Positions 36,187-49,034 of a stretch of 64,000 nt of DNA are shown piece by piece. Both the position numbers and the translations under genes were made by a program. Below the pieces are notes generated by a model. It made no database searches. It saw only the letters and a list, made by a program, of their open reading frames with translations, and had not been told where the DNA came from. This stretch comes from an uncultured Planctomycetaceae bacterium (GTDB taxonomy: Bacteria; Planctomycetota; Planctomycetia; Planctomycetales; Planctomycetaceae). The stretch's first letter is position 1. The number at the start of each line of letters is the position of its first letter. Location: the NCBI GenBank assembly GCA_963815195.1, contig CAWFGE010000006.1:32001-96000 (forward strand), in the 5' to 3' direction.

Positions 36187-37405
36187 CTATTCCGATTTCG
36201 CAAGCCGGGGGGCTAAGACCTCTTTGGACAGGCGGATGATTTCGAGATGCTCCACGTCGCGGATCGCGGCGCCCAGATCGCTGGGGAGTTCGGCCGCCGG
36301 TTCCGCTCCTTTGGCTTTCAACCGAAAGTCCACGACAAACGCTCCCGCCTGGAGGCCGGGCGAGACGAACTCGGGCGGCCACAGGGCGCGGACGACCTTG
36401 CGGAAGTGCTGGGCCAAGAGAAACGTTCCCACCATCGAAAACCCGCCCATCACGACTTCCGCCACGCCCTCCGCCGGGCGGTAGCTGTAAAAAATCAACG
36501 CCGGCTCGCGATCACTGTTGGAAGGGATCATCTCCCAAGTGCCGGGTTCGCGTTCAAAGTAGATTCCCGGCTCCTCGGATGAGATGTGTTGGCCGCTGAG
36601 ATCCGCCGCCAGCACGCGGCCGCCGTGGCAGGAGGGCACGTTGACGTCGGTGTCGCGGTATCGATAAAAGAACGGGCACGCGCGGTCGCCGGGCTTCGAG
36701 ACGCGGTCCTGCGTGCCCCAAGGCGTTGCGGAAAACGCCCGCGCAATCGCCAACTCGCAAAGTCCGTTGCTTTTGACGGACCCCAAACACACGAGGGCCC
36801 GGCTGCCGGGGATGCCGTCGAACCGTTCATAAGCCGACGTCGCCTCCTCCTTCATTTGCTGGAACTCCGCATCGCGCTCGGCGGGTTTGGCTTCCTGTGA
36901 CCTCATGGAGCAGCTTCCGCACCATGTACTGGTCGAACCGCGGCGCGAGGTCGGCGGGAATCGGCTGCGGAACGAGCGGCGCATCTTGAAGCGGTTCGTC
37001 CGGGGCGAGCGAGCCCTGCTCGGTGCCGTAGAGTTCGTGCAAAAGCATGCCCTGCAAATACGAATCGGAGGCCGGGATCCACAGCAGCCCGGTGTCGTGC
37101 ATTTCGTGCCGAACCCCAAACGACATCACGAGCACCTGGCGTTCTGCGAGGAATGCCCAAAAATTTTCCGGTTCAAGCGAAAAGAGCCGGCCCGGTAAAT
37201 CGTAAGAAGAGAGGTGATGGGTATTGATCAAGTAGTCGCAAATCGCCCCCAGGCTGTTGAGCGAGAGATATTGCACTTCGTTTTTCAAAAGCGCCGAGAC
37301 CTGATGCCGCTCGAGTCCGGTTTCTTCCGAAATTTTTTTAATGGTGCCTCGTCCGGTGTCCCGGAGTTCGTTGAGGAGTTCCGCGAGTCGAAATCTAACT
37401 TGCAT
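36187..37405 (-). CDS. Cro/C1-type HTH transcriptional regulator with a large uncharacterised C-terminal domain (apparent frameshift near 36915)
   Basis: MQVRFRLAELL...TIKKISEETGLERHQVSALLKNEVQYLSLNSLGAICDYL (HTH_26-like); the C-terminal part (LVCLGSVKSN...MGGFSMVGT) is in the shifted frame; divergent from the Ubl operon. Confidence 0.75.
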
Positions 37406-37755
37406 AGGAAGCCTCTTATGGCGGTTTATTCTCCACAGAAACCTATGGCGGTTTGTTTTCCCAAAAGACACGGCTTTGGGCAGGAAGGACGCCGAAAGGA
37501 CGCACGAGTTGTCACTGTGTTCACTTTAGGATCCTTCATGGTTCATAAAAAAACAACAACGCAAGTATTTACTGAATAATATGTTAAGGCGTTAGACCCG
37601 AAGGTCTCCTGAAAGGCGCGATCCATGAGCCTTTCGTTTGTGTCAAAGTTTGCCGATTGATCCAAACAAGTCAACATTTCCGAATTGTAGATTTTTTTTC
37701 CGAAACCGTCGGAATTTTCTTGATTCCCGATTTGGGCAAGTTACCATGATTCTCA
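37406..37755. promoter_or_regulatory. AT-rich divergent promoter region between the HTH regulator and the Ubl operon
   Basis: Markedly AT-rich spacer (e.g. ATAAAAAAACAAC...TATTTACTGAATAATATGTTAA) between head-to-head genes; exact promoter elements not resolved. Confidence 0.55.
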
Positions 37756-38196: not shown

Positions 38197-38432
38197 TTGG
38201 GAGATTGTTCCGGTCACTCGTCGTTTGGGCAGCTGCTCGCTGCAAACCGAGGTGACCGCCCGCTCTTTCTGATTCTGATCTTCCCCGGAAAGAGTTGCAA
38301 CAACTTTATCCTTGGATGACCCGCGTTTGCAAAACGAGGTCGGCCAATTGTTTCGCCCCATCCCCCGCGGAGGGTGGCGAAAGACTGGCCGGCCTCGTTT
38401 TTTTTGGCCTCTCGCCTAAAGGAATTTTTGAC

Positions 38433-39029
38433 ATGACTCTGCTCTCCCCGCATTCCAAGGCCTGGAGCCTGCGAAAAGAAAAAATCCTCCAGGTCCTCGG
38501 GGACTTCTCCCAGAAAAGTCCGGCGATGTCCTTGTTGAGTTTCGAAGACACCGGCGACGAGGTGCGGGGGATTGTCCAGTTCGAGACCGAGACCCTGGTG
38601 AAACTGCCGGGGCAAGACGTGCAACTGGCCGGTCCCGTGGTCGCCGGGATTCGCTATCACCACCTGTTCCAATCGCAGGCCCCCGTGCCCTGGGAACTCG
38701 TCACGATCCTGTTCCCGATGGCGGTGTATCACCCGAACGTGAATGCGGGCGGGGGGTTATGTCTCGGACATCCCGCGGCCAACGTGCCGATGGACTTGAT
38801 TCTCCACATGACCTGGGCGGCGCTGGTGCTCAACACCCGCCTGGTCACGACCACGGATTGGAACGTGTTCAACCGCGAGGCCGCCGCGTTCGTTCGCCAG
38901 CACAAGGGCCGGTTTCCGCTGACCGAACGGGGCCTGTTGGAAGCCGTTCCGCTTCCCGCCGCCGTCTCCCAAACCGCCGTTCAAAACCCGACCGCCCCGA
39001 CCCCGCCAAAGGAGGAAGCTCAATCATGA
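38433..39029 (+). CDS. UBC-type ubiquitin-conjugating enzyme (E2)
   Basis: VYHPNVNAGGGLCLG matches the canonical HPN...G-x-x-C-L active site (Cys codon at 38760); downstream NREAA helix motif. Confidence 0.85.
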   Translation: MTLLSPHSKAWSLRKEKILQVLGDFSQKSPAMSLLSFEDTGDEVRGIVQFETETLVKLPGQDVQLAGPVVAGIRYHHLFQSQAPVPWELVTILFPMAVYHPNVNAGGGLCLGHPAANVPMDLILHMTWAALVLNTRLVTTTDWNVFNREAAAFVRQHKGRFPLTERGLLEAVPLPAAVSQTAVQNPTAPTPPKEEAQS

Positions 39030-39907
39030 TTGCCGCCCAAAAGTCCGCCGTGCGCACCATACCCGATTGCCTGCTCAAATGCGGCTGGTCTCCGCGGGGC
39101 CGATTGCAGAATTCGTTCTGCCTGCAGACGCCCCAAGGCGAAGCCGTGCTCGAACGCCAGCCCGCGAATGCTCAAAGCGGGTGGACGGAATGGATTTTAG
39201 ATAGCCCGCATCTTCCAAAGCCGGAGCCGCAAGGCGTGTTCTCGGCCAATCGCCAGATCGAGGGGCCTTGGAAATTCGTGGTCACACCCGCGGGCGAGGT
39301 TATTTGCCGGGGCGATTTCCCACGGGAGGCGAACGTGACCGACGATGCGTTCGACCTGGCCGCGGGGCGAACCTGGTCGCCTTTGGAATTCTGGGCGGAG
39401 TCGGCGACGCACATCGCCCAAACCGGTTCGTCCTCTCTGGTCGATGCGCCCAAACCGCCGGCTCCGGCCTTGGTGCATTGGCTTAAGGAGCATGGCTTTG
39501 TGGCGTCGGCCGACGGCGAAGCGGTGAAGGTGACGGTTCCGCTCTCCGGCACGTTCCGCGAGGTCGCGGTCGATTGGGGCCAGGATGGAAACGTTCGGCT
39601 CCAAGCCGAGATCGGCCGGCTCGCGGGCTGGCCGGAATCTTCACGCGCCGCCGCGGAGGATTTTCTGGAGGAAGCCAATCGCCGGCTGCGGCTCGTCCGC
39701 GTGGCTCAGCCGGGCGAAGAGAAGGTGTATTGCCTGGAGGCGTGTTTTTGTGCGCCCGGTCCCGGTGTCTGGTTGCAGTCGGCCTTGGATGCCCTCTGCA
39801 CCGGCATGGCGCTCTTAGTTCAGCCGTTGGCCGCGCTCCGGGATCCCGGCGTGGCCGACATGCTCTTGGCCGGCAGTTCGGCCAAACGAAAAGGAGGTGT
39901 CGAATGA
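39026..39907 (+). CDS. Uncharacterised protein, probable tandem YbjN/CesT (T3SS chaperone)-like fold
   Basis: ATGA-coupled to both the E2 and Ubl-1; two segments with a helix-N-x-x-hydrophobic-strand pattern (FSANRQIEGPWKF; LEEANRRLRLVRV). Confidence 0.5.
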   Translation: MIAAQKSAVRTIPDCLLKCGWSPRGRLQNSFCLQTPQGEAVLERQPANAQSGWTEWILDSPHLPKPEPQGVFSANRQIEGPWKFVVTPAGEVICRGDFPREANVTDDAFDLAAGRTWSPLEFWAESATHIAQTGSSSLVDAPKPPAPALVHWLKEHGFVASADGEAVKVTVPLSGTFREVAVDWGQDGNVRLQAEIGRLAGWPESSRAAAEDFLEEANRRLRLVRVAQPGEEKVYCLEACFCAPGPGVWLQSALDALCTGMALLVQPLAALRDPGVADMLLAGSSAKRKGGVE

Positions 39908-40209
39908 CCGCAGTCTTGGACGCCCCCGTGATCCCGGATGAACTCACCATCGAAGTGAGCGATCCCACGGGGTTCCAGCACGTCACATTGGAAGGGGTCC
40001 GGGCCTCGGCCACCACCAGCGACATTGTCGCGATGGCAAAGGGTGCGCTGCGTTTGCCCCCGAACGTCCTGTGGGACCTTCGGGAAGAACGCAGCAGCCG
40101 CTTGCTGCCGCCCGATTCTCGTATCGGTGATGTGGCCGGGGAAGCAGCCCCGCACGTCAAGGTGACGATGCAGCCGGATGCCGGCCTCGCCGGCCATCGG
40201 GTTTGCTAA
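39904..40209 (+). CDS. Ubiquitin-like (beta-grasp, YukD/EsaB-like) protein Ubl-1
   Basis: 101 aa; LTIEVSDPTG...TTSDIVAMAKGALRLP...LLPPDSRIGD...VTMQPDAGLAG followed by HRVC; AAGGAGG RBS. Confidence 0.7.
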   Translation: MTAVLDAPVIPDELTIEVSDPTGFQHVTLEGVRASATTSDIVAMAKGALRLPPNVLWDLREERSSRLLPPDSRIGDVAGEAAPHVKVTMQPDAGLAGHRVC

Positions 40210-40268
40210 GGCCCGATCCGCACCCGCCGGCGATGGCGGGCGGGTGCGGGTTTTGATTTCTGCATTTT

Positions 40269-40351
40269 GTCGGGTCCGCTGTGCGGGCCACGGAATGACA
40301 ACAAAACACCCGAACCATCACAACGAATCTGGTCCGCACAGCGGACCCTAC
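40269..40351. repeat. REP-like inverted pair, family E
   Basis: GGGTCCGCTGTGCGGGCCA ... TGGTCCGCACAGCGGACCCTAC. Confidence 0.75.
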
Positions 40352-40388
40352 AAGACTGAATCACCCAAACGACAAGGAGCCGACGCCC

Positions 40389-41501
40389 ATGAAAACATCA
40401 ACTTCTCCGCTGGCCTTTGCCGATCCCGCAGCCGGTGCGAATGACGCAAAACGGTTTGGCTACCGCCTGGTGTTCCAGCGGGCGTCCGACGGCAAACGCC
40501 TGGATACAGGCTTCGCCGATCCGTTCTGGCTGGAGAGTCTCAAAGAGCAAGCGATTTTCCAGGCCCAGCGCCGGGGCCTTGTCGCTGCCGATCCCGCGCA
40601 GGCCGTCGTCTCGGAGCATCCGCTATTCGCGGAAAATACCGACGGCCGGCTCAAGGGATTCGCGATGGCCGCGGGCGAAGGGGAATCCTCGCATTGGACG
40701 CATTTTGAATTGGCGTCCGCCTTCTCCGCCCCGGCGGAAACGGCCCTCCAAAAACTTCTGGAAAGCAAACAACTCGGCACCGACGACAAAGTCACGTTCC
40801 AAATCTTCGCCGAGCCGGCGTCCGAAACCCAGGAAGATGCACCGCAAAACCCCGGCGTGCGGGCGACGGTCCAGCGCAATCCGCTGCCGCTCCTCGCAGG
40901 CCGGCTCTCCGATTTTCTCCCCGATGCCAAACCCAGCGGCGAGATGCAGGAGAAGGACCATCACCTGTTTCTGCCGCGAAAGCTGTTCGAGCAGGCGCGG
41001 GACTATTGCTTCAAAACCGGCAAACAGGAAGGCGGGGCGATGATCGTGGCCCGGATGTATCGCCAGACCGAACCGGAGCCGGACCTCTTCGTCGTGGCAC
41101 ACGCGGTCGTGGAGCTTCGCCATGCCAAGCAGTCGCAGTTCGGGTTCGAGCCGACGTCGGAAACCTTCGCGGACCTGGGAACCCAGCTCAATCTCCGGCG
41201 GACGCGGCTGGGTTTTCCAGAAGAGGTGCCCGCGGTTTTGGTGCATAACCATCCGTTCGAGCCGTCGGTCCGCGACGACGGCGAAGCCAACTGCCCGGCC
41301 TGCCCGCTGCAGCAGGAGTGCCAACTGACCTCGAGCTTTTATAGCGCCAGCGATGTGAATTTCCACCTCAGCATGTACGGCAGCCAGCCGTTCGTGGCGG
41401 GGATTGTGATCGGTCTCACGCCCCGCCGGGAAGACGACGTCCGCATGTTCATTTTGGACGGCACCAAAACCCGCGAACGCGGCTTTCATTGGATCGAATA
41501 G
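40389..41501 (+). CDS. JAB/JAMM metallopeptidase JAB-1 with an N-terminal extra domain and a Cys-rich insert
   Basis: QEGGAMIV (catalytic Glu), LVHNHPF (HxH), FYSASD (S-x-x-D); CPACPLQQEC lies between HxH and SxxD. Confidence 0.82.
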   Translation: MKTSTSPLAFADPAAGANDAKRFGYRLVFQRASDGKRLDTGFADPFWLESLKEQAIFQAQRRGLVAADPAQAVVSEHPLFAENTDGRLKGFAMAAGEGESSHWTHFELASAFSAPAETALQKLLESKQLGTDDKVTFQIFAEPASETQEDAPQNPGVRATVQRNPLPLLAGRLSDFLPDAKPSGEMQEKDHHLFLPRKLFEQARDYCFKTGKQEGGAMIVARMYRQTEPEPDLFVVAHAVVELRHAKQSQFGFEPTSETFADLGTQLNLRRTRLGFPEEVPAVLVHNHPFEPSVRDDGEANCPACPLQQECQLTSSFYSASDVNFHLSMYGSQPFVAGIVIGLTPRREDDVRMFILDGTKTRERGFHWIE

Positions 41502-41528
41502 CCCCGTCACAAAAACCTCTCGTCTTCT

Positions 41529-41641
41529 TAAGCCGCGCACGAAGTCAGCGGTTTTCACTTTGGTTTTTCTTGAGCCGCGCACGAAGTCAGCGGTTTTCAA
41601 GTTATCAGAAACTTAGATCCGCTTACTTCGTGCGCGGCTCA
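41529..41641. repeat. REP-like cluster, family B (two direct and one inverted unit)
   Basis: AGCCGCGCACGAAGTCAGCGGTTTTCA x2, then CCGCTTACTTCGTGCGCGGCTCA. Confidence 0.85.
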
Positions 41642-41690
41642 GTGGTTTTTTGGAAATTGAATCTTCATCCCCAATTGGAAGGAACGATTT

Positions 41691-43400
41691 ATGTCGCTCA
41701 AACCTCCCCAGAATCCCGTTGACTTCCACAAAGCCATCGAAATCTGCCGGCAGTTGAATCTGCCCCCCAAGGCCCGGGCGGAGACGCTCATCTATTTAGT
41801 GATGGAGCAGGGGCTGGATTTGGCGCCGGCCCTTGCGGAGATTCTCAATGAGGCCGACGAAGGCCGGGTCAAAAAGGCCGAGGAAGACGAGGAACACACC
41901 CCTCTGTTGCCGGTGCGGTTCATCGCGCATGTGAAAGTGGGCGGCAAAGCGTACGCGGTCGTGACCGGTCCGCAGGGCACGACTTATCTGCCTTGCTCCG
42001 ATCAGGAGATCAAGGGGCTCGAGTTCGGGGATTCGGTGCTCGTCGATTCCAAGAAAGGCCGCGTGGTCGGCCGCGACGGCGCGGTCCCCCCGGCCGGGGA
42101 AGTCGTGCCGGTGGACAGCTTGTCCGCCGACGATGCCGGGCAGGTCGTGGTCAAAGTCCAGGAGCAGGAAGTCATGGCCCGCGTGCCGCTCAAACTCCGC
42201 CGGGAATCGCCGATCCAGCCGGGACAGCGGGTGATCTTCGACGCGGCGACGCGGTTCATCGACCAGGTCGTCCACAGCGGTTCCGACGGCGAGGAGTTGT
42301 TGACCGATCTGGATTCGCTGGATTCGGTCTCCCGCGCCGATTTGGGCGCGCCGCATCCGGTGCTGGACGACATGCTGTTCCGCATCCGCCAGGACGTTTT
42401 GTATCCCGAATGGGCCCGGCAAATGGGGGCCCGGCTTTCGGCGAGCTACCTGCTCTCCGGCCCGACCGGCACCGGCAAAACGATGCACCTCAAAGTCCTG
42501 GCCCGCGAAGTGGCCGACTTCCTCGAAGACCTCACCGGCGAACGCACCAGTCCGCTGATCACCGTCGATGCCAATTCCTTCTATTCGCCCTGGTTCGGCT
42601 CGACGGAAAGCAAGATTCATTCCTTCTTCGAGCGGCTCCACAAATTGGGGGCCAAACAGATGACGACCAAGGACGGCGTCATCGCGACGCGGCCGCTGAT
42701 CGTTACGCTCGAAGAATGCGAAGCCCTCCTGCGGTCGCGCGGCGAAATGGGAGGCAGCGGGCATTTGTTCGATCGGCCTCTGTCGCTGATCCTGCAGAAA
42801 ATCAGTTCGCTGGGGAACGATCTCCACATGCCGGTGTATTTCGTCGCCACCACCAATCGGCCCGACTTGTTGGATGCGGCGGCCCGGCGGCGGATCGGGA
42901 TTCGGCACGTCGTGTTGGGCACATTGACTGCCGCCCAAGCCGCGAGCGTCCTGGAAACCAAACTCGGGCCTTCGATGAAGTACCGCGGGGCGGAGGCTGC
43001 GGATCAATCCCGGCAGCAACTCGTCCAGCAGGTGCTGAATTTCCTGTTCGCGGGGGATGATGCGGCGCAGGGGATTGCGGAGGTGCGGTTCCTCGACAAC
43101 AACCGCCGCACGCTCTGCCGCCGGCATCTCGTGACCGGGGCGATGCTGGAAGAAGCCGTGAGCGCCGCCACGGACGACTGCCTCAAAGAAAGTGCCGAGG
43201 CGGGCGAACTCGTGGGCATCGATGCCCAGGGGGTGATTCGCTCGCTGGAGTCGCAATTCCGCAGCCTGGCGGGAACGCTGCGAGCCCACAACCTGCCCGA
43301 ATATTGCCCGCAATGGTTCGCGGACGAGCCGTTGCGCGTGGAGCACGTCCGCCCGCTCGCCGGCCGCACCCGCCGCCCGGCCTCGTGGGCGGTCAATTAA
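41691..43400 (+). CDS. AAA+ ATPase related to the proteasomal ATPase Mpa/ARC
   Basis: Two OB-fold-like N-terminal segments, Walker A GPTGTGKT, pore loop SPWFGSTE, Walker B VTLEECE, TTNRPDLLDAAARRR; C-terminal AEVRFLDNNRRTLCRRHLVTGAMLEEAV parallels the ARC 'EVTYANG...SGAMI' region. Confidence 0.8.
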   Translation: MSLKPPQNPVDFHKAIEICRQLNLPPKARAETLIYLVMEQGLDLAPALAEILNEADEGRVKKAEEDEEHTPLLPVRFIAHVKVGGKAYAVVTGPQGTTYLPCSDQEIKGLEFGDSVLVDSKKGRVVGRDGAVPPAGEVVPVDSLSADDAGQVVVKVQEQEVMARVPLKLRRESPIQPGQRVIFDAATRFIDQVVHSGSDGEELLTDLDSLDSVSRADLGAPHPVLDDMLFRIRQDVLYPEWARQMGARLSASYLLSGPTGTGKTMHLKVLAREVADFLEDLTGERTSPLITVDANSFYSPWFGSTESKIHSFFERLHKLGAKQMTTKDGVIATRPLIVTLEECEALLRSRGEMGGSGHLFDRPLSLILQKISSLGNDLHMPVYFVATTNRPDLLDAAARRRIGIRHVVLGTLTAAQAASVLETKLGPSMKYRGAEAADQSRQQLVQQVLNFLFAGDDAAQGIAEVRFLDNNRRTLCRRHLVTGAMLEEAVSAATDDCLKESAEAGELVGIDAQGVIRSLESQFRSLAGTLRAHNLPEYCPQWFADEPLRVEHVRPLAGRTRRPASWAVN

Positions 43401-43403
43401 CCC

Positions 43404-43552
43404 GGCGAGCGGGGGGCGTCAGCCCCCTGGTTACGTCGAGAGTTGAAACCGCGAAGAACCCAAAGAGACACAAACAGAACCAAAACCGAAAAGCGACAAT
43501 GTGAACCAACCGGTAGCCAATACAACCAGGGGGCTGACGCCCCCCGCTCGCC
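43404..43552. repeat. REP-like inverted pair, family C
   Basis: GGCGAGCGGGGGGCGTCAGCCCCCTGG ... CCAGGGGGCTGACGCCCCCCGCTCGCC; a single unit also at 52218. Confidence 0.88.
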
Positions 43553-43583
43553 TGAAACATTTTTTTCAACAAGGAGAACTCTC

Positions 43584-43898
43584 ATGAACTTTCGATTGCT
43601 CAAGAAGAAACTCGATTCCGAAATCCAACCGCAACAGCCCCTCGGCGGCGGAGGCGATCCTTCCGGCGGCGATGGCTGTCCGCAGGGCAGCGTGTTCTGC
43701 CGGCATGGGATTCATTCCGGCTGGTTTCCCATCGCGGGGATGCGGCTGGGCGACGCCCGGCCGATTCTCAATCAGTTGCTCAACATCGACCCCGAAGCCG
43801 TCGCCGTGATCAACGGCCAGATTGTCAACGACGATTTCATCATCGGCGAGGATGTCGAGCTTTTGAACTTCGTCAAGAAATCTTCAATCAAAGGCTGA
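43584..43898 (+). CDS. Ubiquitin-like (ThiS/MoaD/Prok-Ub-like) protein Ubl-2, ending ...SSIKG
   Basis: AAGGAG RBS; AVAVINGQIVNDDFIIGEDVELLNFVKK beta-grasp pattern; terminal Gly at the stop. Confidence 0.8.
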   Translation: MNFRLLKKKLDSEIQPQQPLGGGGDPSGGDGCPQGSVFCRHGIHSGWFPIAGMRLGDARPILNQLLNIDPEAVAVINGQIVNDDFIIGEDVELLNFVKKSSIKG

Positions 43899-43901
43899 CC
43901 G

Positions 43902-44201
43902 ATGACGCGTCCTTCAAACCAACATCCCAAACCCGCAAAAGCCGTCCTCGAAAACGAGGCCGCTCGCGAAGGCCCCGAAGAATCGCCCCAGGGCATCTTT
44001 TGCCGTCACGGGATTTTTTCGGGCCGGTTTCCCATTGCGGGCCTGCGGCTCGGCGAGGTTCGGCCGGTGCTCAGCCGGTTGCTTAACATCGATCCCGAAG
44101 CCGCGGCGGTGGTGGATGGGCGGTTGGTGGGAGACGACTTTCTCATCGGTGACGACGTGGAACTTTTGAATTTCATCAAACCTTCTGGAATCATGGGGTG
44201 A
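43902..44201 (+). CDS. Ubiquitin-like protein Ubl-3, tandem paralog of Ubl-2, ending ...SGIMG
   Basis: 47 of the last 67 residues identical to Ubl-2 by manual alignment; terminal Gly. Confidence 0.8.
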   Translation: MTRPSNQHPKPAKAVLENEAAREGPEESPQGIFCRHGIFSGRFPIAGLRLGEVRPVLSRLLNIDPEAAAVVDGRLVGDDFLIGDDVELLNFIKPSGIMG

Positions 44202-45025
44202 CGTTTATGACTGCATCGACGCTCGAGGAGATCCTCCTCAACGACAAAGAATACGAAGTTCGCGGCGGGGACGGCGAACCGTTCCGGGGCCAACTCGGCG
44301 ACCTCATCGACGCGGTGCGGAAAAACGCCATCGTCGGATTCGAGGAAAACCCGCTACCCAAGAACAACCTGGCGTGGAAAATCGAAGCGGGGCCGCTCAC
44401 GGTGTGCATTGTGGAATTGGAGCCGGCCTTTCGCGTGCTCCAGTGGATTCACCCGGAAAGCGCGATGCCTTACGGTCCCGAGGCGATTTACACGCCCCGC
44501 AGCCTGGCCACGCCTTACGTGGTGCTCAAGGTGTCTTTCGTGGCGGGACACATCACCTCGCGGGCGGAACTGTTTTACCGCAACCGCCGGCTGGCGAATT
44601 TGAATGATGAACTCTACTGGCCGAACCTGCTCAACGTCAGCCCCCACGCCTACGGCTGCCGGGCCTGGATCTGCACGCAGTATCTGCGGACCGAGCATTT
44701 TCAGCCGGGCGTCACCCAGGGGCTCGATGCGCTGCTCCATCATCTGTGGGGCGGCGGATTCAACCGCTCCAGCGAACGTCACGAAGGCAACTCGGCCTTC
44801 AGCAAGGCGGCCAAGGACAAGATCGATTCCCGCGTGACCGACGTGGGCCGCTGGGAGCAGGAATCGATCAAGAACCCCCGCTTCGTGTTGGATGTGAAAT
44901 GGAAACCGGTGGGCGTCACCGTGCGGCAGTTGATTCAGGATGAGCTGGATCACCACAAACCCGTCCGCGACCTGAGCCGCACGGGGGAACTCGTCAACCT
45001 GCTCTCCATGACCCGCCGGTCGTGA
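44198..45025 (+). CDS. Prokaryotic E2 family-D-like protein (PRTRC protein B-like)
   Basis: GTGA-coupled to Ubl-3; LATPYVV, ELYWPNLLNV...WICT (candidate catalytic Cys), LWGGGFN. Confidence 0.7.
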   Translation: MTFMTASTLEEILLNDKEYEVRGGDGEPFRGQLGDLIDAVRKNAIVGFEENPLPKNNLAWKIEAGPLTVCIVELEPAFRVLQWIHPESAMPYGPEAIYTPRSLATPYVVLKVSFVAGHITSRAELFYRNRRLANLNDELYWPNLLNVSPHAYGCRAWICTQYLRTEHFQPGVTQGLDALLHHLWGGGFNRSSERHEGNSAFSKAAKDKIDSRVTDVGRWEQESIKNPRFVLDVKWKPVGVTVRQLIQDELDHHKPVRDLSRTGELVNLLSMTRRS

Positions 45026-45064
45026 ATGACCAAAGAATGATCGCAACTCTGTTTTCAAGCGGAC

Positions 45065-45180
45065 GGGGTCCCACGCCCCTGATCGCAGCGAAGGGCGTGG
45101 CGATCGCAAAGACCACGCCCTTCGTTCCTCAGGGCGTGCCACCCGTGTCACTCAAGTCTCTAGCCACTTTTGTGAAACAC
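45065..45180 (-). repeat. REP-like palindromic element, family A (copy 3, inverted)
   Basis: CCACGCCCTTCGTTCCTCAGGGCGTGCCACCC...TGTGAAACA is the reverse complement of the 5188 and 19968 copies. Confidence 0.85.
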
Positions 45181-45202
45181 AACTCGCAAAGGACCAACTG
45201 CC

Positions 45203-46078
45203 ATGAACTTTGAGATTCTCATCAAAACGCTCCACACCGAGCTGCCCGAACTCAAGCCGGGGCAGTTTCGGTATGTGCTCGGGCGGGACGGTTTGCACGT
45301 GGAACGGGCCACGCCGATGTATACGAGCAGCGTGAAAGTCGACGGCCCGGTTCCGTTTCTCGCGGAGCATCCCCAGCAATGCCGGCTCAATTGCGGGCCG
45401 ATTCCCTCGAACATGCTCCGGCAGATGGTGGGCTTTTTCCAGGCGGCCTACCACATGCACGGCGGCGAAGCGGCCCTCGTTCTGTTGTACTTTCCCGCAA
45501 CCGGAAAGTTCGCCTGGCATTGCCCGAAGCAGACGATTCGGATGTATTCGTCGTGGGGCAAGTTCCGCGCGGACGATTCGGTGGAATACGACAACCCGCT
45601 GTCGCTGCCGGCGGGCGCGGTGCAATTCGGCGATGCCCATTCCCACATCGGCCCACCGATCCCTTCGATCATGGATCAAAACGATGAAGCCCATTTGGAT
45701 GGCCTGCATATCATCGTGGGAAACATCTCCAGCCGGTTTCCACGATGGCACATTGATTTTTGCATCGACGGCCACCGCTTCTCGGTGCCGACCGACATGA
45801 TTCTCGAAGCCGTCCCCGAAGCCCCATTTCCGGAACCGCCGGTCGGATGGACGCAGCAAATCCAGTTGGTTTATCCCTCGTGGAAAACCGAATCCTACTC
45901 GGCTTCCAAGCCGCGAACGTCCACGTGGAGCAGTTCAAGCCACTCCCGCTTCGGCTCCTCCAAGAACCAGAACGGTTCCGGCAGCCGGGACTCTGTGGAA
46001 GAGAACGACGAGTCGCCTCCGTCTGCATCCGAGAAACCCGCCGCCGAATCCCAACCCAGCGACGAGGATGAATCATGA
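45203..46078 (+). CDS. JAB peptidase JAB-2 (PRTRC protein A-like) with a Ser/acidic disordered tail
   Basis: YVLGRDGL...GPIP, GEAALVL (Glu), GDAHSH (HxH), PSIMDQNDE (S-x-x-D), GLHIIVGNI. Confidence 0.85.
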   Translation: MNFEILIKTLHTELPELKPGQFRYVLGRDGLHVERATPMYTSSVKVDGPVPFLAEHPQQCRLNCGPIPSNMLRQMVGFFQAAYHMHGGEAALVLLYFPATGKFAWHCPKQTIRMYSSWGKFRADDSVEYDNPLSLPAGAVQFGDAHSHIGPPIPSIMDQNDEAHLDGLHIIVGNISSRFPRWHIDFCIDGHRFSVPTDMILEAVPEAPFPEPPVGWTQQIQLVYPSWKTESYSASKPRTSTWSSSSHSRFGSSKNQNGSGSRDSVEENDESPPSASEKPAAESQPSDEDES

Positions 46079-46896
46079 TGAATCCCGACACCGAAAAACC
46101 AACGACCGCCGCGGAGAAAATCGCCCGGCAACTGGAAACCCGCTGGCTCGCCGAGGGCCGGATTGTGGTCATCGGCCTGGGCGGAATCGGGTCGATTCTC
46201 GCCCGGTATCTGGTGCTGTTTCTGGCGAGCCTGCCGGACGAGTTTCGCGTGCTGCTTGCCGACGGCGACAGTTTTGAACCGGACAACACCTACCGCATGG
46301 ATGTGCCCGGCTATCAGAACAAGGCCGTGGCGATGGACATGGAACTCAGCGAGCGGTTCGGCCGCGAGGGTTTGGTGATCCGCTCGAAAGCGAAATATCT
46401 CAGCCCCGGCAACACGGACGACCTGATCCGCGAGGGCGACTTCGTGCTGCTCTGCGTCGACAACCATGCCACCCGCAAACTCGCCAGCGACCGGTTAAGC
46501 GAACTCGATAACGGGGCGATCGTCTCCGCGGGCAACGACGGCGTCGGCGACGGCGAGCGGGGCACTTATGGGAACCTGCAGATCTACGCCCGGCAAAACG
46601 GGGAAACCATCGCCGGCGGGCCCTTCGATATGTTTCATCCCGAAATCGCCGAGCCGGAGGATGTCTTCCCCGACGAAATGGACTGCATGGAACTGGCCGC
46701 ACAAGGGGCGCCGCAACTTTTGCCGATGAACCTGGCGATGGCCTCGGCGATGCTCTCGGCGGTGCTCCGGTTTCTGATGCCTCCGCCAGACGAATCGATG
46801 TACGACGAGGTGTGCCTCGATATTTTGGAAGCCACGGCCGTTCCGCAATGGCTGACCCGGCCGCAAAAACGCCCGAAGCCTTCGACCCCCGTTTGA
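46075..46896 (+). CDS. ThiF/E1-like activating enzyme E1-a (PRTRC ThiF-like)
   Basis: ATGA-coupled to JAB-2; VIGLGGIGS, ADGD, NTYR, NKA, CVDNHATRK; candidate catalytic Cys in EMDCMELA. Confidence 0.9.
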   Translation: MMNPDTEKPTTAAEKIARQLETRWLAEGRIVVIGLGGIGSILARYLVLFLASLPDEFRVLLADGDSFEPDNTYRMDVPGYQNKAVAMDMELSERFGREGLVIRSKAKYLSPGNTDDLIREGDFVLLCVDNHATRKLASDRLSELDNGAIVSAGNDGVGDGERGTYGNLQIYARQNGETIAGGPFDMFHPEIAEPEDVFPDEMDCMELAAQGAPQLLPMNLAMASAMLSAVLRFLMPPPDESMYDEVCLDILEATAVPQWLTRPQKRPKPSTPV

Positions 46897-46921
46897 CCAA
46901 CCGAAGAGAGAGGAGCCTTTA

Positions 46922-47548
46922 ATGAAAACGTTCTGCCTGCATCCCATCCGCCGGGCGGTGCTCGATTCCGATCCGCCGCTGTTGTGCATTTCGTCCGCCG
47001 ATTGCCGGGAGGCCCCGCGGATGGTCTGGATCACCAAACGGGGCCGCTTGCGGAGTTCCCCTGCTCAACAAGTCCACGAAACCGCCCGGCGGATGGCGCG
47101 CCTCTTGTACCGCGATGCGGGCCACGGCAATTCGCAATGGCTCTTTGCGCCGCTGTGTGACGAAGTGCTGCACAATGGCATCCGGCCGCTGGCGATCGCG
47201 ATCATCGAACCGGGCGACGTGCTCGCCCTCGGCGAAGAATGCTGGTTCGCGTCGGAACTCTGGCGGCCGGCCCCGGTCCCGGCTCCGGAAAACATCGCCG
47301 AGAAGGAATGCTCCGTCTGCGGCGGCCCGCTCAAATTGGCCCCGGTCATCCAATGCCCCTGCGGGCGGTATTATCACCTCGAGCATCCCGAAACCCCGGA
47401 CGATCCGCAGGCGTTGAATTGCTACCTGACGGCCGGCATGTGCGGATTGTGCGAACGCAAGCCGAGCCTCGAACCGCAGTTTCTCCCAACGCCGCCGGAA
47501 GAATTGATCCCGGAAGACCACCTCGCCGCCGCGCTTGCCGCGGTGTGA
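46922..47548 (+). CDS. Degenerate FHA-like domain + RING-like (Prok-RING-type) zinc finger; candidate E3
   Basis: VLHNG...IEPGDVLALG (FHA C-terminal strands); CSVC-x11-CPC-x4-H...C-x6-CGLC at about 47309..47451. Confidence 0.65.
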   Translation: MKTFCLHPIRRAVLDSDPPLLCISSADCREAPRMVWITKRGRLRSSPAQQVHETARRMARLLYRDAGHGNSQWLFAPLCDEVLHNGIRPLAIAIIEPGDVLALGEECWFASELWRPAPVPAPENIAEKECSVCGGPLKLAPVIQCPCGRYYHLEHPETPDDPQALNCYLTAGMCGLCERKPSLEPQFLPTPPEELIPEDHLAAALAAV

Positions 47549-47711
47549 ATGCGTTTCGCGATTGGAAAGGATTGAACCACCGATAAACGAATAAGACGAA
47601 TAAAGACCCACATGGCTTTTATCCGCGCGCCTCCGCGTTCTCCGCGGTCCATATCTTTGGCTTTGTTTGATTCGTCGCTCAACGCGGCTTGATCTTGTGA
47701 GAGGTATTGTC

Positions 47712-48875
47712 ATGGCTCAAGAGGTTTTATCCGAACACGATTTGGCTTCGTGTTGGCCGGCGATTCCCAGTGTGGACTGGCGGCTCCTCGGACAAACGCG
47801 ATTTGTGTTCGTGGGCGCGGGGGCGGTGAATCGGCCGCTGGCATTCCAGTTGGCGTGGTTGGGGATGAAGGGGTGCATCGTCATCGATCCCAAACCGTAC
47901 AAATCCCAAAGCGTCATTTCGCAATGCAAACCTTGCGAAGTCGGGCGGTTTAAAGCCGAAGTTGTCGCGGAGGAGCTTCAGAAGCGGGGCGTCGCGGCGA
48001 CGCCCTTCGTGAAAGACGTGGACGTGGTGCCGCCCGGCTATTTGGAAGGGGACAGCCTCGTCATCGTGGCGGTGGACAATCGCCGGGCCGACATTTGTGC
48101 GAACCGCTTCGCCGCCCGCATGCGCCGGCCGCTGGTGAAAGTCAACGTGGATCCCAATTACCTCACCGCGTCCATTCGCTGTTACGACCTGCGAAACGGT
48201 CCCCTCGCTCTGTGCGCGGAATGCCAAATGACGGATCGGCATTACGAAGAGCAACGGCACCCCTTAAGCTGCGACGGCGGCGAAGTGGGAGAACAAGCCA
48301 CAGGCAGCCCGCGGCCGCTCAGCCAGTTCGCCGCGAATGCCGCGGCTTTGGCCGTCGCCCAAATCGCCGGTTCGCCCGACGAATGGGCCAAGACCTGGTG
48401 GGGAAAGCAATGGCAGCAAAACCTGTTGGGCGGCCGGGGCTTTTTTTCGGATCTCGAACCCAACCCCCATTGCCGCTGGGATCACGCCGCGGCTTGGGAT
48501 CCGCTGATCTTCCTGCCGCACGATCAGCCCATCAGCCTCTCGCATCTGGCCAAGGGAACATTCGGCTCAATGCCGACTTGGGAAGTCGAGTTTTCCGCGC
48601 GGGTCGCGACGCGGATGGTCTGTTCCCAATGCCGAGCCTCCGAGGAAGGCGTGTGGTGGGTCGCGGAACTCGACCGGCCGGTGACGCGTTGCGGTTGCGG
48701 CGGCGAGAGTTTTGCGCTGCCGTTCTTCACCCACAAAAAACTCCCGGCCGCGGAGCTCGAATCCGTTTGGAACCGGCCGCTCGCCGCGTGGGGCGTGACG
48801 CCGGGTTCTGTTCTCCGCTTCGCCTCGGCTTCCAAGAACCAAATGTACTGTTTGCGCGTTCCAAGATTGCCTTAG
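47712..48875 (+). CDS. Second ThiF/E1-like protein E1-b with a C-terminal zinc-ribbon extension
   Basis: FVGAGAVN, VIDP, GRFKAE, AVDNRRA, LCAEC, HPLSC (candidate catalytic Cys), NPHCRWDH, CSQC...CGCG. Confidence 0.82.
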   Translation: MAQEVLSEHDLASCWPAIPSVDWRLLGQTRFVFVGAGAVNRPLAFQLAWLGMKGCIVIDPKPYKSQSVISQCKPCEVGRFKAEVVAEELQKRGVAATPFVKDVDVVPPGYLEGDSLVIVAVDNRRADICANRFAARMRRPLVKVNVDPNYLTASIRCYDLRNGPLALCAECQMTDRHYEEQRHPLSCDGGEVGEQATGSPRPLSQFAANAAALAVAQIAGSPDEWAKTWWGKQWQQNLLGGRGFFSDLEPNPHCRWDHAAAWDPLIFLPHDQPISLSHLAKGTFGSMPTWEVEFSARVATRMVCSQCRASEEGVWWVAELDRPVTRCGCGGESFALPFFTHKKLPAAELESVWNRPLAAWGVTPGSVLRFASASKNQMYCLRVPRLP

Positions 48876-49034
48876 CCGCGTAGCGGCGGCGGCAATTCTT
48901 CACGAGTCGCATTGAACAAAAGCGATTTCACAGAAAACCATTGCTGTCGCCGCTTCGCGGCTTGCTATTTCTCATCGAGCAATTCTCTCTGCGGGCTGAC
49001 GCCCGCAGCTATCTGCTGTCGCCGCTTCGCGGCT
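48874..49034. repeat. REP-like cluster, family F, at a convergent gene junction
   Basis: AGCCGCGTAGCGGCGGCGGCA plus two copies of TGCTGTCGCCGCTTCGCGGCT. Confidence 0.75.

What the first reader, a model, noticed from the sequence alone, without database searches (positions are those of the whole stretch)
41691..43400. Mpa/ARC-like unfoldase embedded among true Ubl genes, lacking an HbYX tail
Seen: OB-like N-terminal region, Walker A GPTGTGKT, aromatic pore loop (PWFG), non-canonical Walker B (VTLEE rather than hhhhDE), Arg-finger region and an ARC-like C-terminal subdomain. The protein ends ...PASWAVN. Established: Mpa/ARC recognises the disordered tag Pup and docks on the 20S core through a GQYL (HbYX) tail. 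No pup, pafA, dop or prcAB genes are in this window. Inference: a proteasomal ATPase repurposed to read beta-grasp tags, acting either as a p97-like segregase without a 20S core or with a different protease. That would link ubiquitin-style tagging to an ARC-type motor in a bacterium.
Basis: partly seen in the sequence, partly recalled or inferred. Interest (0 to 1): 0.82.

Follow-up and report, generated by a model that had tools for sequence, protein, structure and literature searches.

The report
Proteasome-type unfoldase in bacterial ubiquitin-like cassette
The gene encodes a ring-ATPase built like the mycobacterial proteasome ATPase Mpa that sits in a conserved planctomycete gene cassette for two ubiquitin-like tags, in genomes with no proteasome core, so it probably unfolds or extracts tagged proteins rather than feeding a proteasome.

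Summary
Window 41691-43400 (+) is a real 569-aa gene. It has Walker A GPTGTGKT, pore loop WFG, Walker B LIVTLEE (EE is invariant in the family) and SRH arginines. It has two OB-like domains and no HbYX tail.

By sequence, fold and tree its nearest known relative is Mpa/ARC, but it fails the Mpa equivalog score (93.7 vs 504.75 bits).

It sits in a 12-gene, one-strand cassette:
- HPN-Cys E2
- YbjN-like protein
- ubiquitin-fold Ubl1
- JAB1
- this AAA
- Ubl2 (two copies)
- an unknown protein with an E2_D-like lead
- JAB2
- E1
- RING-like protein
- a second E1

Cassette genes flank the ATPase in 8 of 8 related loci. They also flank it around all 9 other Mpa-like ATPases found in 401 Planctomycetota genomes.

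In five sister loci the Ubl2 module is replaced by PafA/Dop x2 plus a Pup-like GGQ/GGE ORF. That pairing has a one-sentence mention in print (PMC7159879).

None of 11 cassette genomes tested has a 20S alpha/beta pair.

The reading that the motor reads beta-grasp tags stays an inference. No binding or activity was shown. This scan noted the same cassette earlier in other genomes.

The parts
38433..39029 (+). E2 (UBC-like) with an HPN...GGLCLG active-site motif
   Evidence: Alignment A4 has invariant H100, N102 and C110. A profile search against PDB gives a UBC protein as top hit (E 0.009), and nearly all other listed hits are E2 enzymes matching at the HPN-Cys stretch. Conserved in 6 of 8 core loci plus L039, L036, L037, L038, L040 and L043. 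The start at 38433 was chosen from homology.
39026..39907 (+). 293-aa protein, YbjN / TY-chaperone-like (weak lead)
   Evidence: Pfam YbjN, E 1.9e-4, 22.1 bits against a cut-off of 22. Atlas feature hits to YbjN/TY-Chap1 clusters score 0.87, which is a lead only. Its ATG overlaps the E2 stop codon (ATGA). Conserved in core loci.
39904..40209 (+). Ubl1: ubiquitin-fold tag ending ...QPDAGLAG+HRVC (relatives end ...AGLG)
   Evidence: Alignments A3 and A9 show a C-terminal Gly, with or without a short tail, across the core, tier A and tier B loci. AF2 model pLDDT 88.4, with beta-beta-alpha-beta-beta-alpha-beta order. Foldseek top hits are a bacterial Ubl (8tyx_A, E 2.2e-5), ubiquitin (1yj1_C, TM 0.81, rmsd 2.3 over 79 columns) and Caldiarchaeum ubiquitin.
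40389..41501 (+). JAB1: JAMM peptidase with a ~200-aa N-terminal extension and a Cys-rich insert
   Evidence: A6 has invariant E214, H286-x-H288, S319-x-x-D322 and C302/C305/C311. Tier B homologues hit Pfam Prok-JAB/JAB. It lies directly upstream of the ATPase in 8 of 8 core loci and is missing in L039.
41691..43400 (+). The finding: a divergent Mpa/ARC-type AAA+ ATPase (N-helices, two OB-like domains, one AAA module, short C-terminal subdomain, no HbYX)
43584..43898 (+). Ubl2 copy a: ~105-aa tag ending ...VKKSSIKG, with a ~40-residue Gly-rich N-terminal extension
   Evidence: A2 has an invariant terminal Gly, and some relatives carry 2-4 extra residues. The weak top PDB profile hits are SAMP2 and PF1061, E 0.4-0.5, not significant. 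It follows the ATPase in all 6 core loci whose contig extends that far.
43902..44201 (+). Ubl2 copy b (tandem paralogue, ends ...IKPSGIMG)
   Evidence: 51% identical to copy a in A2. A second copy is seen only here and in L009.
44198..45025 (+). Highly conserved 275-aa protein of unknown family; possible second E2 (Prok-E2_D-like lead)
   Evidence: A5 has mean column identity 66%. No Pfam hit in 0 of 6 members and no PDB sequence hit. In the Atlas, 26 of 30 feature hits are to clusters where 13-30% of members carry PF14460 Prok-E2_D, score 0.96, but the recognition value of 1677 is below the 2300 mark, so this is a lead only.
45203..46078 (+). JAB2: canonical JAMM peptidase (PRTRC_A-like)
   Evidence: A7 has invariant E89, H146-x-H148 and S155-x-x-D158. 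NCBIfam PRTRC_A, E 5.3e-5, below its cut-off. The L035 homologue hits Prok-JAB.
46075..46896 (+). E1a: ThiF-family adenylating enzyme
   Evidence: Pfam ThiF, E 2.5e-12, 46.9 bits. PADLOC E1-E2 models match the E1 part only.
46922..47548 (+). Cys/His-rich protein, RING-like binuclear zinc finger (E3 candidate)
   Evidence: A8 has invariant C130-x2-C133, C145-x-C147, H152, C167 and C174-x2-C177. 5 of 7 members match Pfam Prok-RING_1 weakly, best E 0.0013, below the cut-off. The syntenic genes in tier B loci hit Prok-RING_1 at 3.7e-6 and 2.7e-4.
47667..48875 (+). E1b: second ThiF-like E1 with C-terminal Cys pairs
   Evidence: Pfam ThiF, E 3.9e-6, 26.6 bits, just under the cut-off. Homologues in L037, L038 and L040 hit ThiF at about 1e-26. 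Conserved next to the E2 in core, tier A and tier B loci.
36187..37471 (-). Divergent upstream pair: Cro/C1-type HTH protein (36827-37471) and an unknown protein (conserved part about 36187-36915). Possible regulators; membership in the cassette is uncertain.
   Evidence: Pfam HTH_26, E 2.2e-7. Both are conserved in L009. The unknown protein has a 27%-identical homologue upstream of the tier A cassette in L035.

Best explanation
The gene encodes a divergent member of the Mpa/ARC branch of proteasomal AAA+ ATPases. It has an N-terminal helical region, two OB-like domains, one classical AAA module and a small C-terminal subdomain.

It is a fixed component of a roughly 10.4-kb, one-strand cassette found sporadically in Planctomycetota. 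The cassette encodes two ubiquitin-like conjugation modules:
- Module 1: RING-like protein, E1b, HPN-Cys E2, YbjN-like protein, ubiquitin-fold Ubl1 and JAB1.
- Module 2: Ubl2, an unknown E2_D-like protein, JAB2 and E1a.

Inferred mechanism:
1. The cassette conjugates its Ubl(s), through the C-terminal glycine, to target proteins.
2. The hexameric ATPase recognises the tagged protein with its N-terminal helices and OB ring.
3. It threads the protein through the WFG pore.
4. It works as a proteasome-free unfoldase or segregase, like p97 or an orphan ARC. JAB1, encoded directly upstream, would strip the tag during translocation in the way Rpn11 does on the Rpt ring.

Shown here: homology and fold, intact ATPase motifs, conserved linkage, and absence of 20S genes.

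Inferred only: hexamer formation, ATPase activity with the EE Walker B, tag recognition, the JAB1 partnership, and the biological role. The role could be anti-phage or conflict-related, given the patchy distribution.
For: Homology and fold:
- NCBIfam best hit is pup_AAA TIGR03689, E 1.1e-26, covering residues 48-525. PAN, CDC48 and FtsH models score 32-41 bits on parts only.
- Foldseek: Mpa 7px9_E at E 3.3e-29 over 510 columns. The next family, Rpt, first appears at rank 31 with E 2.7e-17.
- VIA-align: Mpa Z 28.4, 454 residues aligned, model 69-559 against Mpa 97-589. p97 D2 scores Z 22.0 over 277 residues.
- Tree of 91 rows: all Mpa-like rows form one clade (82 rows, SH-aLRT 99) apart from Cdc48 D1/D2 and FtsH. 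This family (31 rows, support 100) and a sister group (34 rows, 99) form a clade with support 100.

Catalytic motifs are invariant in 29 sequences: K263, E341, E342, N389, R400, R401, F302-G303.

Linkage:
- In 8 of 8 core loci from genome contigs the ATPase is flanked by cassette genes.
- All 9 other Planctomycetota genomes with an Mpa-like hit at E<=1e-30 (of 401 searched) carry it beside homologues of the E1, E2, Ubl1 or JAB genes, at only 24-37% ATPase identity.

The neighbours are what they seem:
- Ubl1 has a ubiquitin fold.
- The E2 has HPN...C.
- Both JABs have JAMM motifs.
- The E1s are ThiF family.

No 20S core:
- The own genome (94.6% complete) has one PF00227 hit. It is HslV, next to HslU.
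- Ten further cassette genomes have 0 or 1 PF00227 hit each.
- C-termini in the family are variable or absent, with no penultimate Tyr.
Against: - No experiment or prediction shows binding of any Ubl to the ATPase.
- Walker B is hhhhEE instead of hhhhDE throughout this family and its sister group, so ATP hydrolysis is not certain.
- Sister loci carry a Pup-like tag and two PafA/Dop genes beside the ATPase. The ancestral ligand of the motor may therefore be Pup, not a beta-grasp tag.
- One core locus (L039) lacks JAB1. This weakens the idea of an obligate JAB1 partnership.
- The single PF00227 hits in 7 other genomes were not checked to be HslV.
- 4 cassette genomes (G405, G068, G093, G099) were not tested for PF00227.
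- PAN/Rpt sequences were not in the tree.
Confidence: 0.55

Rival explanations
1. The ATPase delivers tagged proteins to a protease encoded elsewhere (HslV, ClpP, Lon-type or an unknown chamber). The cassette would then be a true tag-and-degrade pathway.
For: Mpa, PAN and the Rpt proteins all feed a protease (established knowledge). Many family members keep a basic C-terminal tail, RRPxxxxxx, and the sister group has an HRYL-like motif 4-6 residues from the end. Kaur et al. 2020 read the Ubl-Pup coupling as support for target degradation (passage read).
Against: No protease other than the two JAB isopeptidases lies in the cassette in any locus. The tail is missing in several family members and carries no conserved aromatic residue. 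HslV has its own HslU next to it. Three cassette genomes have no PF00227 hit at all.
Confidence: 0.15
2. The ATPase acts on the conjugation machinery itself and not on tagged targets. It might unfold or recycle Ubl precursors or Ubl assemblies, or dissociate E1-E2-Ubl or JAB complexes.
For: It sits between JAB1 and Ubl2 in every core locus. Some Ubl copies carry C-terminal tails that need processing. Ubl2 has a long flexible N-terminal extension that a pore could grip.
Against: Known Ubl systems need no unfoldase for maturation (established knowledge). The Mpa-like N-domain architecture is that of a substrate receptor.
Confidence: 0.15
3. The motor still reads a Pup-like disordered tag, for example the product of the GGE-ending ORF next to the membrane PafA/Dop-like gene elsewhere in this genome. 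In that case it is only a neighbour of the Ubl genes.
For: Five sister loci have a Pup-like ORF plus PafA/Dop x2 directly beside the ATPase. The own genome holds a PafA/Dop-like gene and an adjacent ORF ending in GGE on contig C1.
Against: No Pup-like ORF or Pup ligase lies in any of the core or tier A cassettes. The C1 ligase is split into two frames and is unlinked to the cassette. PF05639 finds nothing in the genome. In this family Ubl2-E2_D-like-JAB2-E1a occupies the place of the Pup module.
Confidence: 0.07
4. The protein is a catalytically dead scaffold, because the Walker B aspartate is replaced by glutamate.
For: Walker B is LEE, not hhhhDE.
Against: EE is invariant or nearly so across 65 tree rows, and Walker A Lys, sensor-1 Asn, the SRH arginines and the pore loop are strictly kept. 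That pattern is not expected for a dead enzyme. Two members have reverted to DE.
Confidence: 0.05

Closest known systems
Mpa / ARC, the actinobacterial proteasome-associated ATPase (NCBIfam TIGR03689; PDB 7px9, 5kwa, 5kzf)
   Same: Same domain order: N-terminal helix, two OB-like domains, one AAA module and a C-terminal subdomain. It is the best sequence-family hit, the best fold hit (Z 28.4 over 454 residues), and falls in the same clade in the tree.
   Different: Scores 93.7 bits against the 504.75-bit equivalog cut-off. About 19-20% identity to Mpa in the structural alignments. Walker B is EE, not DE. There is no GQYL/HbYX tail. No Pup, PafA, Dop or PrcAB lies in the locus, and the genome has no 20S. 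It is embedded in E1/E2/RING/JAB/Ubl genes instead.
[quoted passage not shown]
   Same: The sister loci found here (L037, L038, L040, L042, L043) are of this type: RING, E1, E2, Ubl1, JAB, Mpa-like ATPase, PafA/Dop, Pup-like GGQ/GGE ORF, PafA/Dop. The window shares module 1 and the ATPase with them.
   Different: In the window's family the Pup module is absent. A second beta-grasp module (Ubl2, unknown E2_D-like protein, JAB2, E1a) stands in its place. The ATPase is also more divergent (EE Walker B). The sentence in print does not mention the ATPase.
Caldiarchaeum-type / Prok-RING-associated eukaryote-like ubiquitin operons (Ub, E1, E2, RING, Rpn11-like JAB)
   Same: Module 1 has a ubiquitin-fold tag with a C-terminal Gly, a ThiF E1, an HPN-Cys E2, a RING-like zinc finger and a JAMM peptidase. 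Caldiarchaeum ubiquitin (6fnn_C) is among the top fold hits of Ubl1.
   Different: Those archaea have a 20S proteasome and PAN (recalled, not tested here). Here the motor is inside the operon and there is no 20S. The Burroughs et al. 2011 paper that defines the Prok-RING operons could not be read.
Cdc48 / p97
   Same: A proteasome-independent unfoldase for ubiquitin-tagged proteins, which is the proposed working analogy. It is the best plain-sequence PDB hit over the AAA module (E 3e-16).
   Different: Cdc48 has two AAA modules and a double-psi-barrel N domain. This protein has one AAA module and OB domains, and falls outside the Cdc48 rows in the tree.
BilABCD and related bacterial E1-E2-JAB-Ubl defence operons (name recalled; PDB 8tyx and 8tyz titles seen)
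   Same: Module 2 (Ubl, E2-like lead, JAB, E1) has the same four-part make-up. A bacterial Ubl from 8tyx is the top fold hit of Ubl1.
   Different: No PADLOC model other than generic E1 parts matches any cassette protein. No AAA ATPase appeared in the one paper from that literature that I searched (PMC11601596 passages).

Membership tests
Mpa/ARC proteasomal ATPase (TIGR03689 pup_AAA equivalog) | Whole-protein score above the curated equivalog cut-off | tested here: not met
   93.7 bits against a cut-off of 504.75. It is still the best-scoring family and the only one that covers residues 48-525.
Mpa/ARC proteasomal ATPase (TIGR03689 pup_AAA equivalog) | Architecture: N-terminal coiled-coil helix, tandem OB domains, single AAA module, C-terminal subdomain | tested here: met
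   AF2 model. VIA-align to Mpa gives Z 28.4, 454 residues aligned, model 69-559 against Mpa 97-589. Some homologues hit PF16450. Formation of a coiled coil was not itself tested.
Mpa/ARC proteasomal ATPase (TIGR03689 pup_AAA equivalog) | C-terminal GQYL / HbYX motif for docking on the 20S core | tested here: not met
   The protein ends ...PASWAVN. Family C-termini are variable or truncated, with no penultimate Tyr.
Mpa/ARC proteasomal ATPase (TIGR03689 pup_AAA equivalog) | Genomic and functional link to Pup, PafA/Dop and PrcA/PrcB | tested here: not met
   None are in the window or the core loci. The genome has only HslV and no PF05639 hit. Pup and PafA/Dop, but not PrcAB, are linked in five sister loci.
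Mpa/ARC proteasomal ATPase (TIGR03689 pup_AAA equivalog) | Groups with Mpa-like ATPases rather than other AAA clades | tested here: met
   The clade of 82 Mpa-like rows has SH-aLRT 99 against Cdc48 D1/D2 and FtsH rows. PAN/Rpt rows were not available, so separation from PAN rests on HMM scores and fold ranks.
Classical AAA clade (Pfam PF00004) | Walker A GxxGxGK[ST], Walker B acidic pair, sensor-1 Asn, second region of homology with an Arg finger, pore loop aromatic-Gly | tested here: met
   PF00004 at E 4.3e-17. Motifs are aligned to Cdc48 D2 and invariant in 29 sequences. Walker B is EE rather than DE.
Cdc48/p97 family | Two tandem AAA modules preceded by a double-psi-barrel N domain | tested here: not met
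   One AAA module and OB-like N-domains. TIGR01243 CDC48 scores 35.3 bits against a cut-off of 802.65.
Ubl-plus-Pup coupled cassette (Kaur et al. 2020 mention) | Pup-like tag and PafA/Dop ligases in the same operon as E1/E2/RING/JAB/Ubl | tested here: not met
   The window has no Pup ligase and no GG[QE]-ending ORF. The feature is met in L037, L038, L040, L042 and L043.
Eukaryote-like bacterial/archaeal ubiquitin operon (Ub, E1, E2, RING, JAB) | Ubiquitin-fold tag with a C-terminal glycine | tested here: met
   Ubl1. Ubl2: the terminal Gly is conserved, but the fold was not modelled and the PDB profile hits are not significant.
Eukaryote-like bacterial/archaeal ubiquitin operon (Ub, E1, E2, RING, JAB) | E2 with the HPN motif and a catalytic Cys; ThiF-type E1; JAMM peptidase | tested here: met
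   E2; E1a above and E1b just below the Pfam cut-off; JAMM residues invariant.
Eukaryote-like bacterial/archaeal ubiquitin operon (Ub, E1, E2, RING, JAB) | RING-type E3 | tested here: inconclusive
   Eight conserved Cys/His ligands in a RING-like spacing. 5 of 7 members match Prok-RING_1 only weakly, best E 0.0013, below the cut-off.

The most novel reading that the evidence does not exclude
The cassette is a self-contained, proteasome-free 'tag, grip and strip' machine with two interchangeable tag modules. Module 1 (RING, E1, E2, Ubl1) marks the target. The Mpa-like ring together with JAB1 forms an Rpt/Rpn11-like deubiquitinating unfoldase. The second module supplies the flexible handle that the motor's N-terminal helices and pore engage: Pup with PafA/Dop in sister loci, and Ubl2 with its ~40-residue disordered N-terminal extension here. 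If so, evolution swapped a disordered Pup tag for a beta-grasp tag on the same motor. That would be a bacterial snapshot of how ubiquitin-type tags became coupled to proteasomal ATPases.
Probability: 0.2. Interest if true: 0.85.

Novelty: new variant of a known kind. Interest (0 to 1): 0.7.

Why it matters
Ubiquitin tagging and the proteasomal ATPases are usually treated as an archaeal and eukaryotic pairing. Bacteria are thought to use Pup with Mpa, and to use their ubiquitin-like systems without any motor.

Here a proteasome-type motor is hard-wired into a bacterial E1-E2-RING-Ubl-JAB cassette, in genomes with no proteasome core. Close relatives show the same motor beside a Pup module.

This gives a tractable system for three questions:
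- What can a ubiquitin-type tag plus an unfoldase do without a protease?
- How does tag recognition by an OB/coiled-coil ring change when the tag changes?
- Is such a cassette a conflict or defence system?

The last question is suggested by the patchy spread: 10 of 401 Planctomycetota genomes, and 0 of 20 in the window's own family.

Tried and rejected
- Complex prediction. ATPase residues 1-200 (two copies, alignment A1) were folded with Ubl1 (A3). The result was no verdict (scores 0.06 and 0.30 against a mark of 0.32) and the controls were not run. It says nothing for or against binding. Ubl2 and JAB1 could not be tried because the cap is one job.
- Expression. No RNA holder was listed for window 39000-48900. 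Two DNA holders were listed (0.52 and 0.05 of the words). No reads were laid.
- Known defence systems. PADLOC gave only generic AAA hits (TRIP13, IetA, AAA module only) and E1-part hits. PHROGs gave generic AAA hits.
- Promoter and terminator scan of 37300-49200: 0 promoter-like sites (2.2 expected) and 16 terminator-like sites (16.7 expected), so uninformative.
- Unknown 275-aa protein: no PDB hit and no Pfam hit.
- Ubl2 profile against PDB: only non-significant hits.
- Papers not held: Burroughs et al. 2011 (DOI and PMC5938088) and Burroughs et al. 2012 (PMC5881585). They may describe these operons.
- Cavalier-Smith 2020 (PMC7203096) holds the search terms only beyond the 300,000 characters kept.
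- Literature searches for an AAA/Mpa-like ATPase in bacterial E1/E2/RING/JAB operons gave only the one sentence in PMC7159879.
- Reading considered and rejected: a Cdc48-like protein, because it has a single AAA module, OB domains and falls outside Cdc48 in the tree.
- Reading considered and rejected: a canonical UBact/Pup-proteasome system, because there is no 20S and no Pup in the locus.
Full report
**1. The observation**

Window 41691-43400 (+) is an ATG-started ORF of 569 aa.
- Walker A is G257-PTGTG-K263-T.
- The pore loop is SP-W301-F302-G303. HMMER aligns it to the MWYG pore loop of Cdc48 D2.
- Walker B is LIVTL-E341-E342, aligned to VVFLDE of Cdc48.
- The TTN389RPD sensor-1 stretch and R400/R401 lie in the second region of homology.
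- The protein ends RRPASWAVN.

Pfam finds one AAA domain, PF00004, E 4.3e-17, residues 253-405.

An AlphaFold2 model built on 29 homologues has mean pLDDT 83.9 and pTM 0.64. It shows helices 10-20 and 26-68, two beta-domains at 72-128 and 137-194, the AAA large and small subdomains, and a last strand at 550-555.

The gene is real. A word-indexed search gave 54 homologous clusters at 34-88% identity. In a 29-sequence alignment 35 columns are invariant. They include K263, F302, G303, E341, E342, N389, R400, R401 and a family-specific S356-x-H-L-F-D-R362 stretch after Walker B.

**2. Which AAA clade**

- *Sequence families.* The best NCBIfam model is pup_AAA (TIGR03689), E 1.1e-26, 93.7 bits. It is the only model that covers residues 48-525. 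PAN, CDC48, CdvC and FtsH models score 32-41 bits on parts only. The score is far under the 504.75-bit equivalog cut-off.
- *PDB by sequence.* Plain phmmer ranks Cdc48 D2 first (E 3e-16) over the AAA module alone. Mpa (5kwa, E 1.4e-14) matches residues 110-527.
- *Fold.* Foldseek puts Mpa chains at ranks 1-30 (best 7px9_E, E 3.3e-29, 510 columns). Rpt subunits begin at rank 31 with E 2.7e-17. VIA-align gives Mpa Z 28.4, rmsd 6.6, 454 residues, model 69-559 against Mpa 97-589. The best single-module matches (p97 D2, NVL, spastin, Vps4) score Z about 22 over about 277 residues.
- *Profile search.* A search of 1.84 billion representatives gave 257 hits at E<=1e-30. There is a core family with E below 1e-74. 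Then comes a sister group, which I call tier A, at E 1e-72 to 1e-48. Tier A also scores only 72-121 bits on pup_AAA, and where its members carry names they are from Planctomycetota. Then come more orthodox Mpa-like proteins, tier B, at 218-322 bits on pup_AAA.
- *Tree.* The quick maximum-likelihood tree has 91 rows. They are 31 core proteins, 50 from the tiers, the first 540 residues of a fused true pup_AAA protein, Cdc48 D1 and D2 of three proteins, and the FtsH AAA regions of three own-genome loci. For the tiers I took every second protein of 98 that were 500-700 aa long, plus P0056. Fragments were dropped. All Mpa-like rows form one clade (82 rows, SH-aLRT 99). Core (support 100) plus tier A (99) form a clade with support 100. 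PAN and Rpt were not available to me, so the separation from PAN rests on the HMM and fold rankings.

Walker B is hhhhEE in nearly all core and tier A proteins and hhhhDE in tier B. No group has a penultimate tyrosine. Tier B has an HRYL-like motif 4-6 residues from the end. Core members have a variable RRPxxxxxx tail or none.

**3. The surroundings in the window**

The ATPase is gene 5 of 12 on one strand, spanning 38433-48875. Several start codons overlap the preceding stop. Taking the genes in order:
- **E2.** HPN...GGLCLG, with invariant H100, N102 and C110. Profile hits in PDB are E2 enzymes, best E 0.009.
- **293-aa protein.** A marginal YbjN hit.
- **Ubl1.** About 100 aa. Relatives end ...QPDAGLG, and the window copy carries a short tail. 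Its model (pLDDT 88.4) has the ubiquitin strand and helix order. The best fold hits are a bacterial Ubl (8tyx_A), ubiquitin itself (TM up to 0.81, rmsd 2.3, about 20% identity) and Caldiarchaeum ubiquitin.
- **JAB1.** E214, H286-x-H288 and S319-x-x-D322, with a three-cysteine insert and a ~200-aa N-terminal extension.
- **The ATPase.**
- **Ubl2, two tandem copies.** They end ...SSIKG and ...SGIMG. Each has a ~40-residue Gly-rich N-terminal extension.
- **275-aa protein.** Very conserved, with no Pfam or PDB match. Language-model neighbours partly carry Prok-E2_D, which is a lead only.
- **JAB2.** A canonical E...HxHx6SxxD motif.
- **E1a.** ThiF family.
- **RING-like protein.** Eight conserved Cys/His ligands and weak Prok-RING_1 matches in 5 of 7 members.
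- **E1b.** A second ThiF-like E1.

For Ubl2 it holds by the conserved terminal glycine and context only.

**4. Is the linkage conserved?**

A scan of one genome per species found 8 loci, all from Planctomycetota MAGs. In all 8 the ATPase is flanked by cassette genes as far as the contig reaches.
- JAB1 lies upstream in 8 of 8.
- Ubl2, the 275-aa protein, JAB2 and E1a lie downstream in all 6 loci that extend that way.
- The RING-like gene and E1b lie upstream of the E2 in L012, L013, L015 and L016, and the RING-like gene lies downstream of E1a in L011. In the window and L009 both lie at the 3' end.

In a sample of 401 Planctomycetota genomes, 10 have a match at E<=1e-30. One is the window's genome, one is another core member (G395), and 8 are tier A or B. 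None of 20 genomes of the window's own family has one.

I fetched the context of all 9 other hits.
- G395 (L039) has the cassette without JAB1.
- Three tier A loci (L035, L036, L041) have homologues of E1b, E2, Ubl1, JAB1, Ubl2, the 275-aa protein, JAB2 and E1a, as far as their contigs reach. They also have an extra 417-aa gene after the ATPase.
- Five tier B loci (L037, L038, L040, L042, L043) read: Prok-RING_1, ThiF, E2, Ubl1-like, Prok-JAB, Mpa-like ATPase (with PF16450 and PF17758), Pup_ligase, a 60-70-aa ORF ending ...RQEGGQ or ...QAGGE, Pup_ligase.

The trio Ubl1-JAB-ATPase, with E1b and the E2, is therefore kept down to 24-28% ATPase identity. What varies is the second module: a Pup system in tier B, and a second beta-grasp system in tier A and the core family.

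**5. Proteasome core**

The window's genome is 94.6% complete.
- It has a single PF00227 hit. This is HslV (257 bits on the HslV equivalog), next to HslU.
- No other protein in the genome covers the pup_AAA model end to end.
- There is no PF05639 hit.

Five genomes with core loci have one PF00227 hit each, with similar scores. G106 and G395 have one each. G088, G058 and G138 have none.

So 0 of 11 cassette genomes show the two hits that a 20S alpha/beta pair would give. I verified HslV only in the own genome. I did not test G405, G068, G093 or G099.

**6. How it most likely works**

Shown here:
- an Mpa-type fold with intact nucleotide and pore motifs;
- obligate genomic company of a ubiquitin-type cascade;
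- no 20S core and no docking motif.

Inferred:
- The ring binds tagged proteins through its N-terminal helices and OB ring, and threads them.
- Without a protease chamber the outcome is unfolding or extraction, as with p97.
- JAB1 acts like Rpn11 above the ring.

The alternatives are delivery to an unlinked protease, action on the conjugation machinery itself, continued reading of a Pup-like tag, or a dead scaffold. They are listed with odds in the Rival explanations section.

Which tag is read is open.
- Ubl1 is the universally conserved neighbour.
- Ubl2 occupies the slot of the Pup module and has a long flexible N-terminal arm, which is what a pore needs for initiation.

The patchy distribution hints at a conflict or defence role. 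So do a TIR-domain gene (L040) and a ParB-like gene (L035) beside relatives. This was not tested.

**7. Comparison with print**

- Kaur et al. [quoted passage not shown] They take this as support for degradation. The passage does not mention the ATPase, and nothing there describes the two-Ubl form.
- Iyer et al. 2008 (PMC2588565, passages) describe planctomycete Pup and PafA without proteasome genes and with membrane-inserted ligases.
- Hecht et al. 2020 (PMC7947786, passages) use planctomycete PafA/Dop paralogues as an outgroup.
- Aravind et al. 2012 (PMC3417536, passages) describe mobile E1/E2/E3/JAB operons without an ATPase.
- The Bub preprint (PMC11601596, passages) mentions no AAA partner.
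- Burroughs et al. 2011 and 2012 were not held and may bear on this.

My nine literature searches found no description of an Mpa-like ATPase inside a two-Ubl cassette.

Earlier notes of this scan describe the same cassette, and the Ubl-plus-Pup form, in other genomes. I reached the same picture from my own calls. I took from one note the pointer to the sentence in print, which I then read.

**8. Verdict**

This is a new variant of a known kind: a divergent Mpa/ARC-branch motor that has lost every proteasome and Pup hallmark and is fixed inside a bacterial two-tag ubiquitin-like cassette. Function remains untested.

Noticed in passing
L007:10204-12017 (own genome, contig C1:54203-56016), minus strand: A PafA/Dop-like gene is split into two adjacent ORFs in different frames (286 aa matching Pup_ligase positions 1-168, and 302 aa matching 223-440). 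The first ORF has strongly hydrophobic, TM-like segments. Just upstream is an ORF ending ...VVPHGGE. This resembles the membrane-anchored planctomycete Pup ligase described by Iyer et al. 2008. It is not near any ATPase or proteasome gene.
   Followed up: partly
L037:~12870-13085(+), L038:7803-8006(-), L040:~13250-13456(+), and L042 and L043 between their two Pup_ligase genes: Five sister loci carry a Pup-like small ORF (conserved ...SGDSEAFLRANRQEGGQ, one ending GGE) between two PafA/Dop homologues. It lies directly after the Mpa-like ATPase, in the same operon as the RING, E1, E2, Ubl and JAB genes. Three of the five host genomes were searched for PF00227 and have no hit at all; the other two were not tested.
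   Followed up: yes
window 43584-44201; L009:11744-12437: Ubl2 is tandemly duplicated only in the window and its closest relative L009. The two window copies are 51% identical, so the duplication is not recent.
   Followed up: partly
L039 (G395:C36), between 6242 and 6482: This core-family cassette has no JAB1 gene between Ubl1 and the ATPase, so JAB1 is not universal.
   Followed up: no
L035:11274-12527 and L041:8568-9845: Tier A cassettes have an extra conserved 417-aa gene (45% identity between the two loci) between the ATPase and Ubl2. It has no Pfam match.
   Followed up: no
L040:4003-4905; L035:3137-4375; L037:16127-17204: Genes typical of conflict or mobile contexts lie beside relatives of the cassette: a TIR_2-domain protein directly upstream of the E1, a ParB-like protein, and an HTH_3 plus DUF6088 pair.
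   Followed up: no
L009:10001-11702 and 14274-15088; L013:12243-12983 and 13910-14718: In these MAG loci the ATPase (L009), the E1a gene (L009 and L013) or the gene for the 275-aa protein (L013) is interrupted: the match splits into two pieces, or a stop codon falls inside it. These may be assembly errors or decay.
   Followed up: no
window 36187-37471 (-) and 37756-38196 (+): Three genes lie just upstream of the cassette: a divergently oriented Cro/C1-type HTH gene, an adjacent unknown gene and a 146-aa gene. All three are conserved in L009, and the unknown gene also has a homologue upstream of the tier A cassette in L035. They may be regulators.
   Followed up: partly
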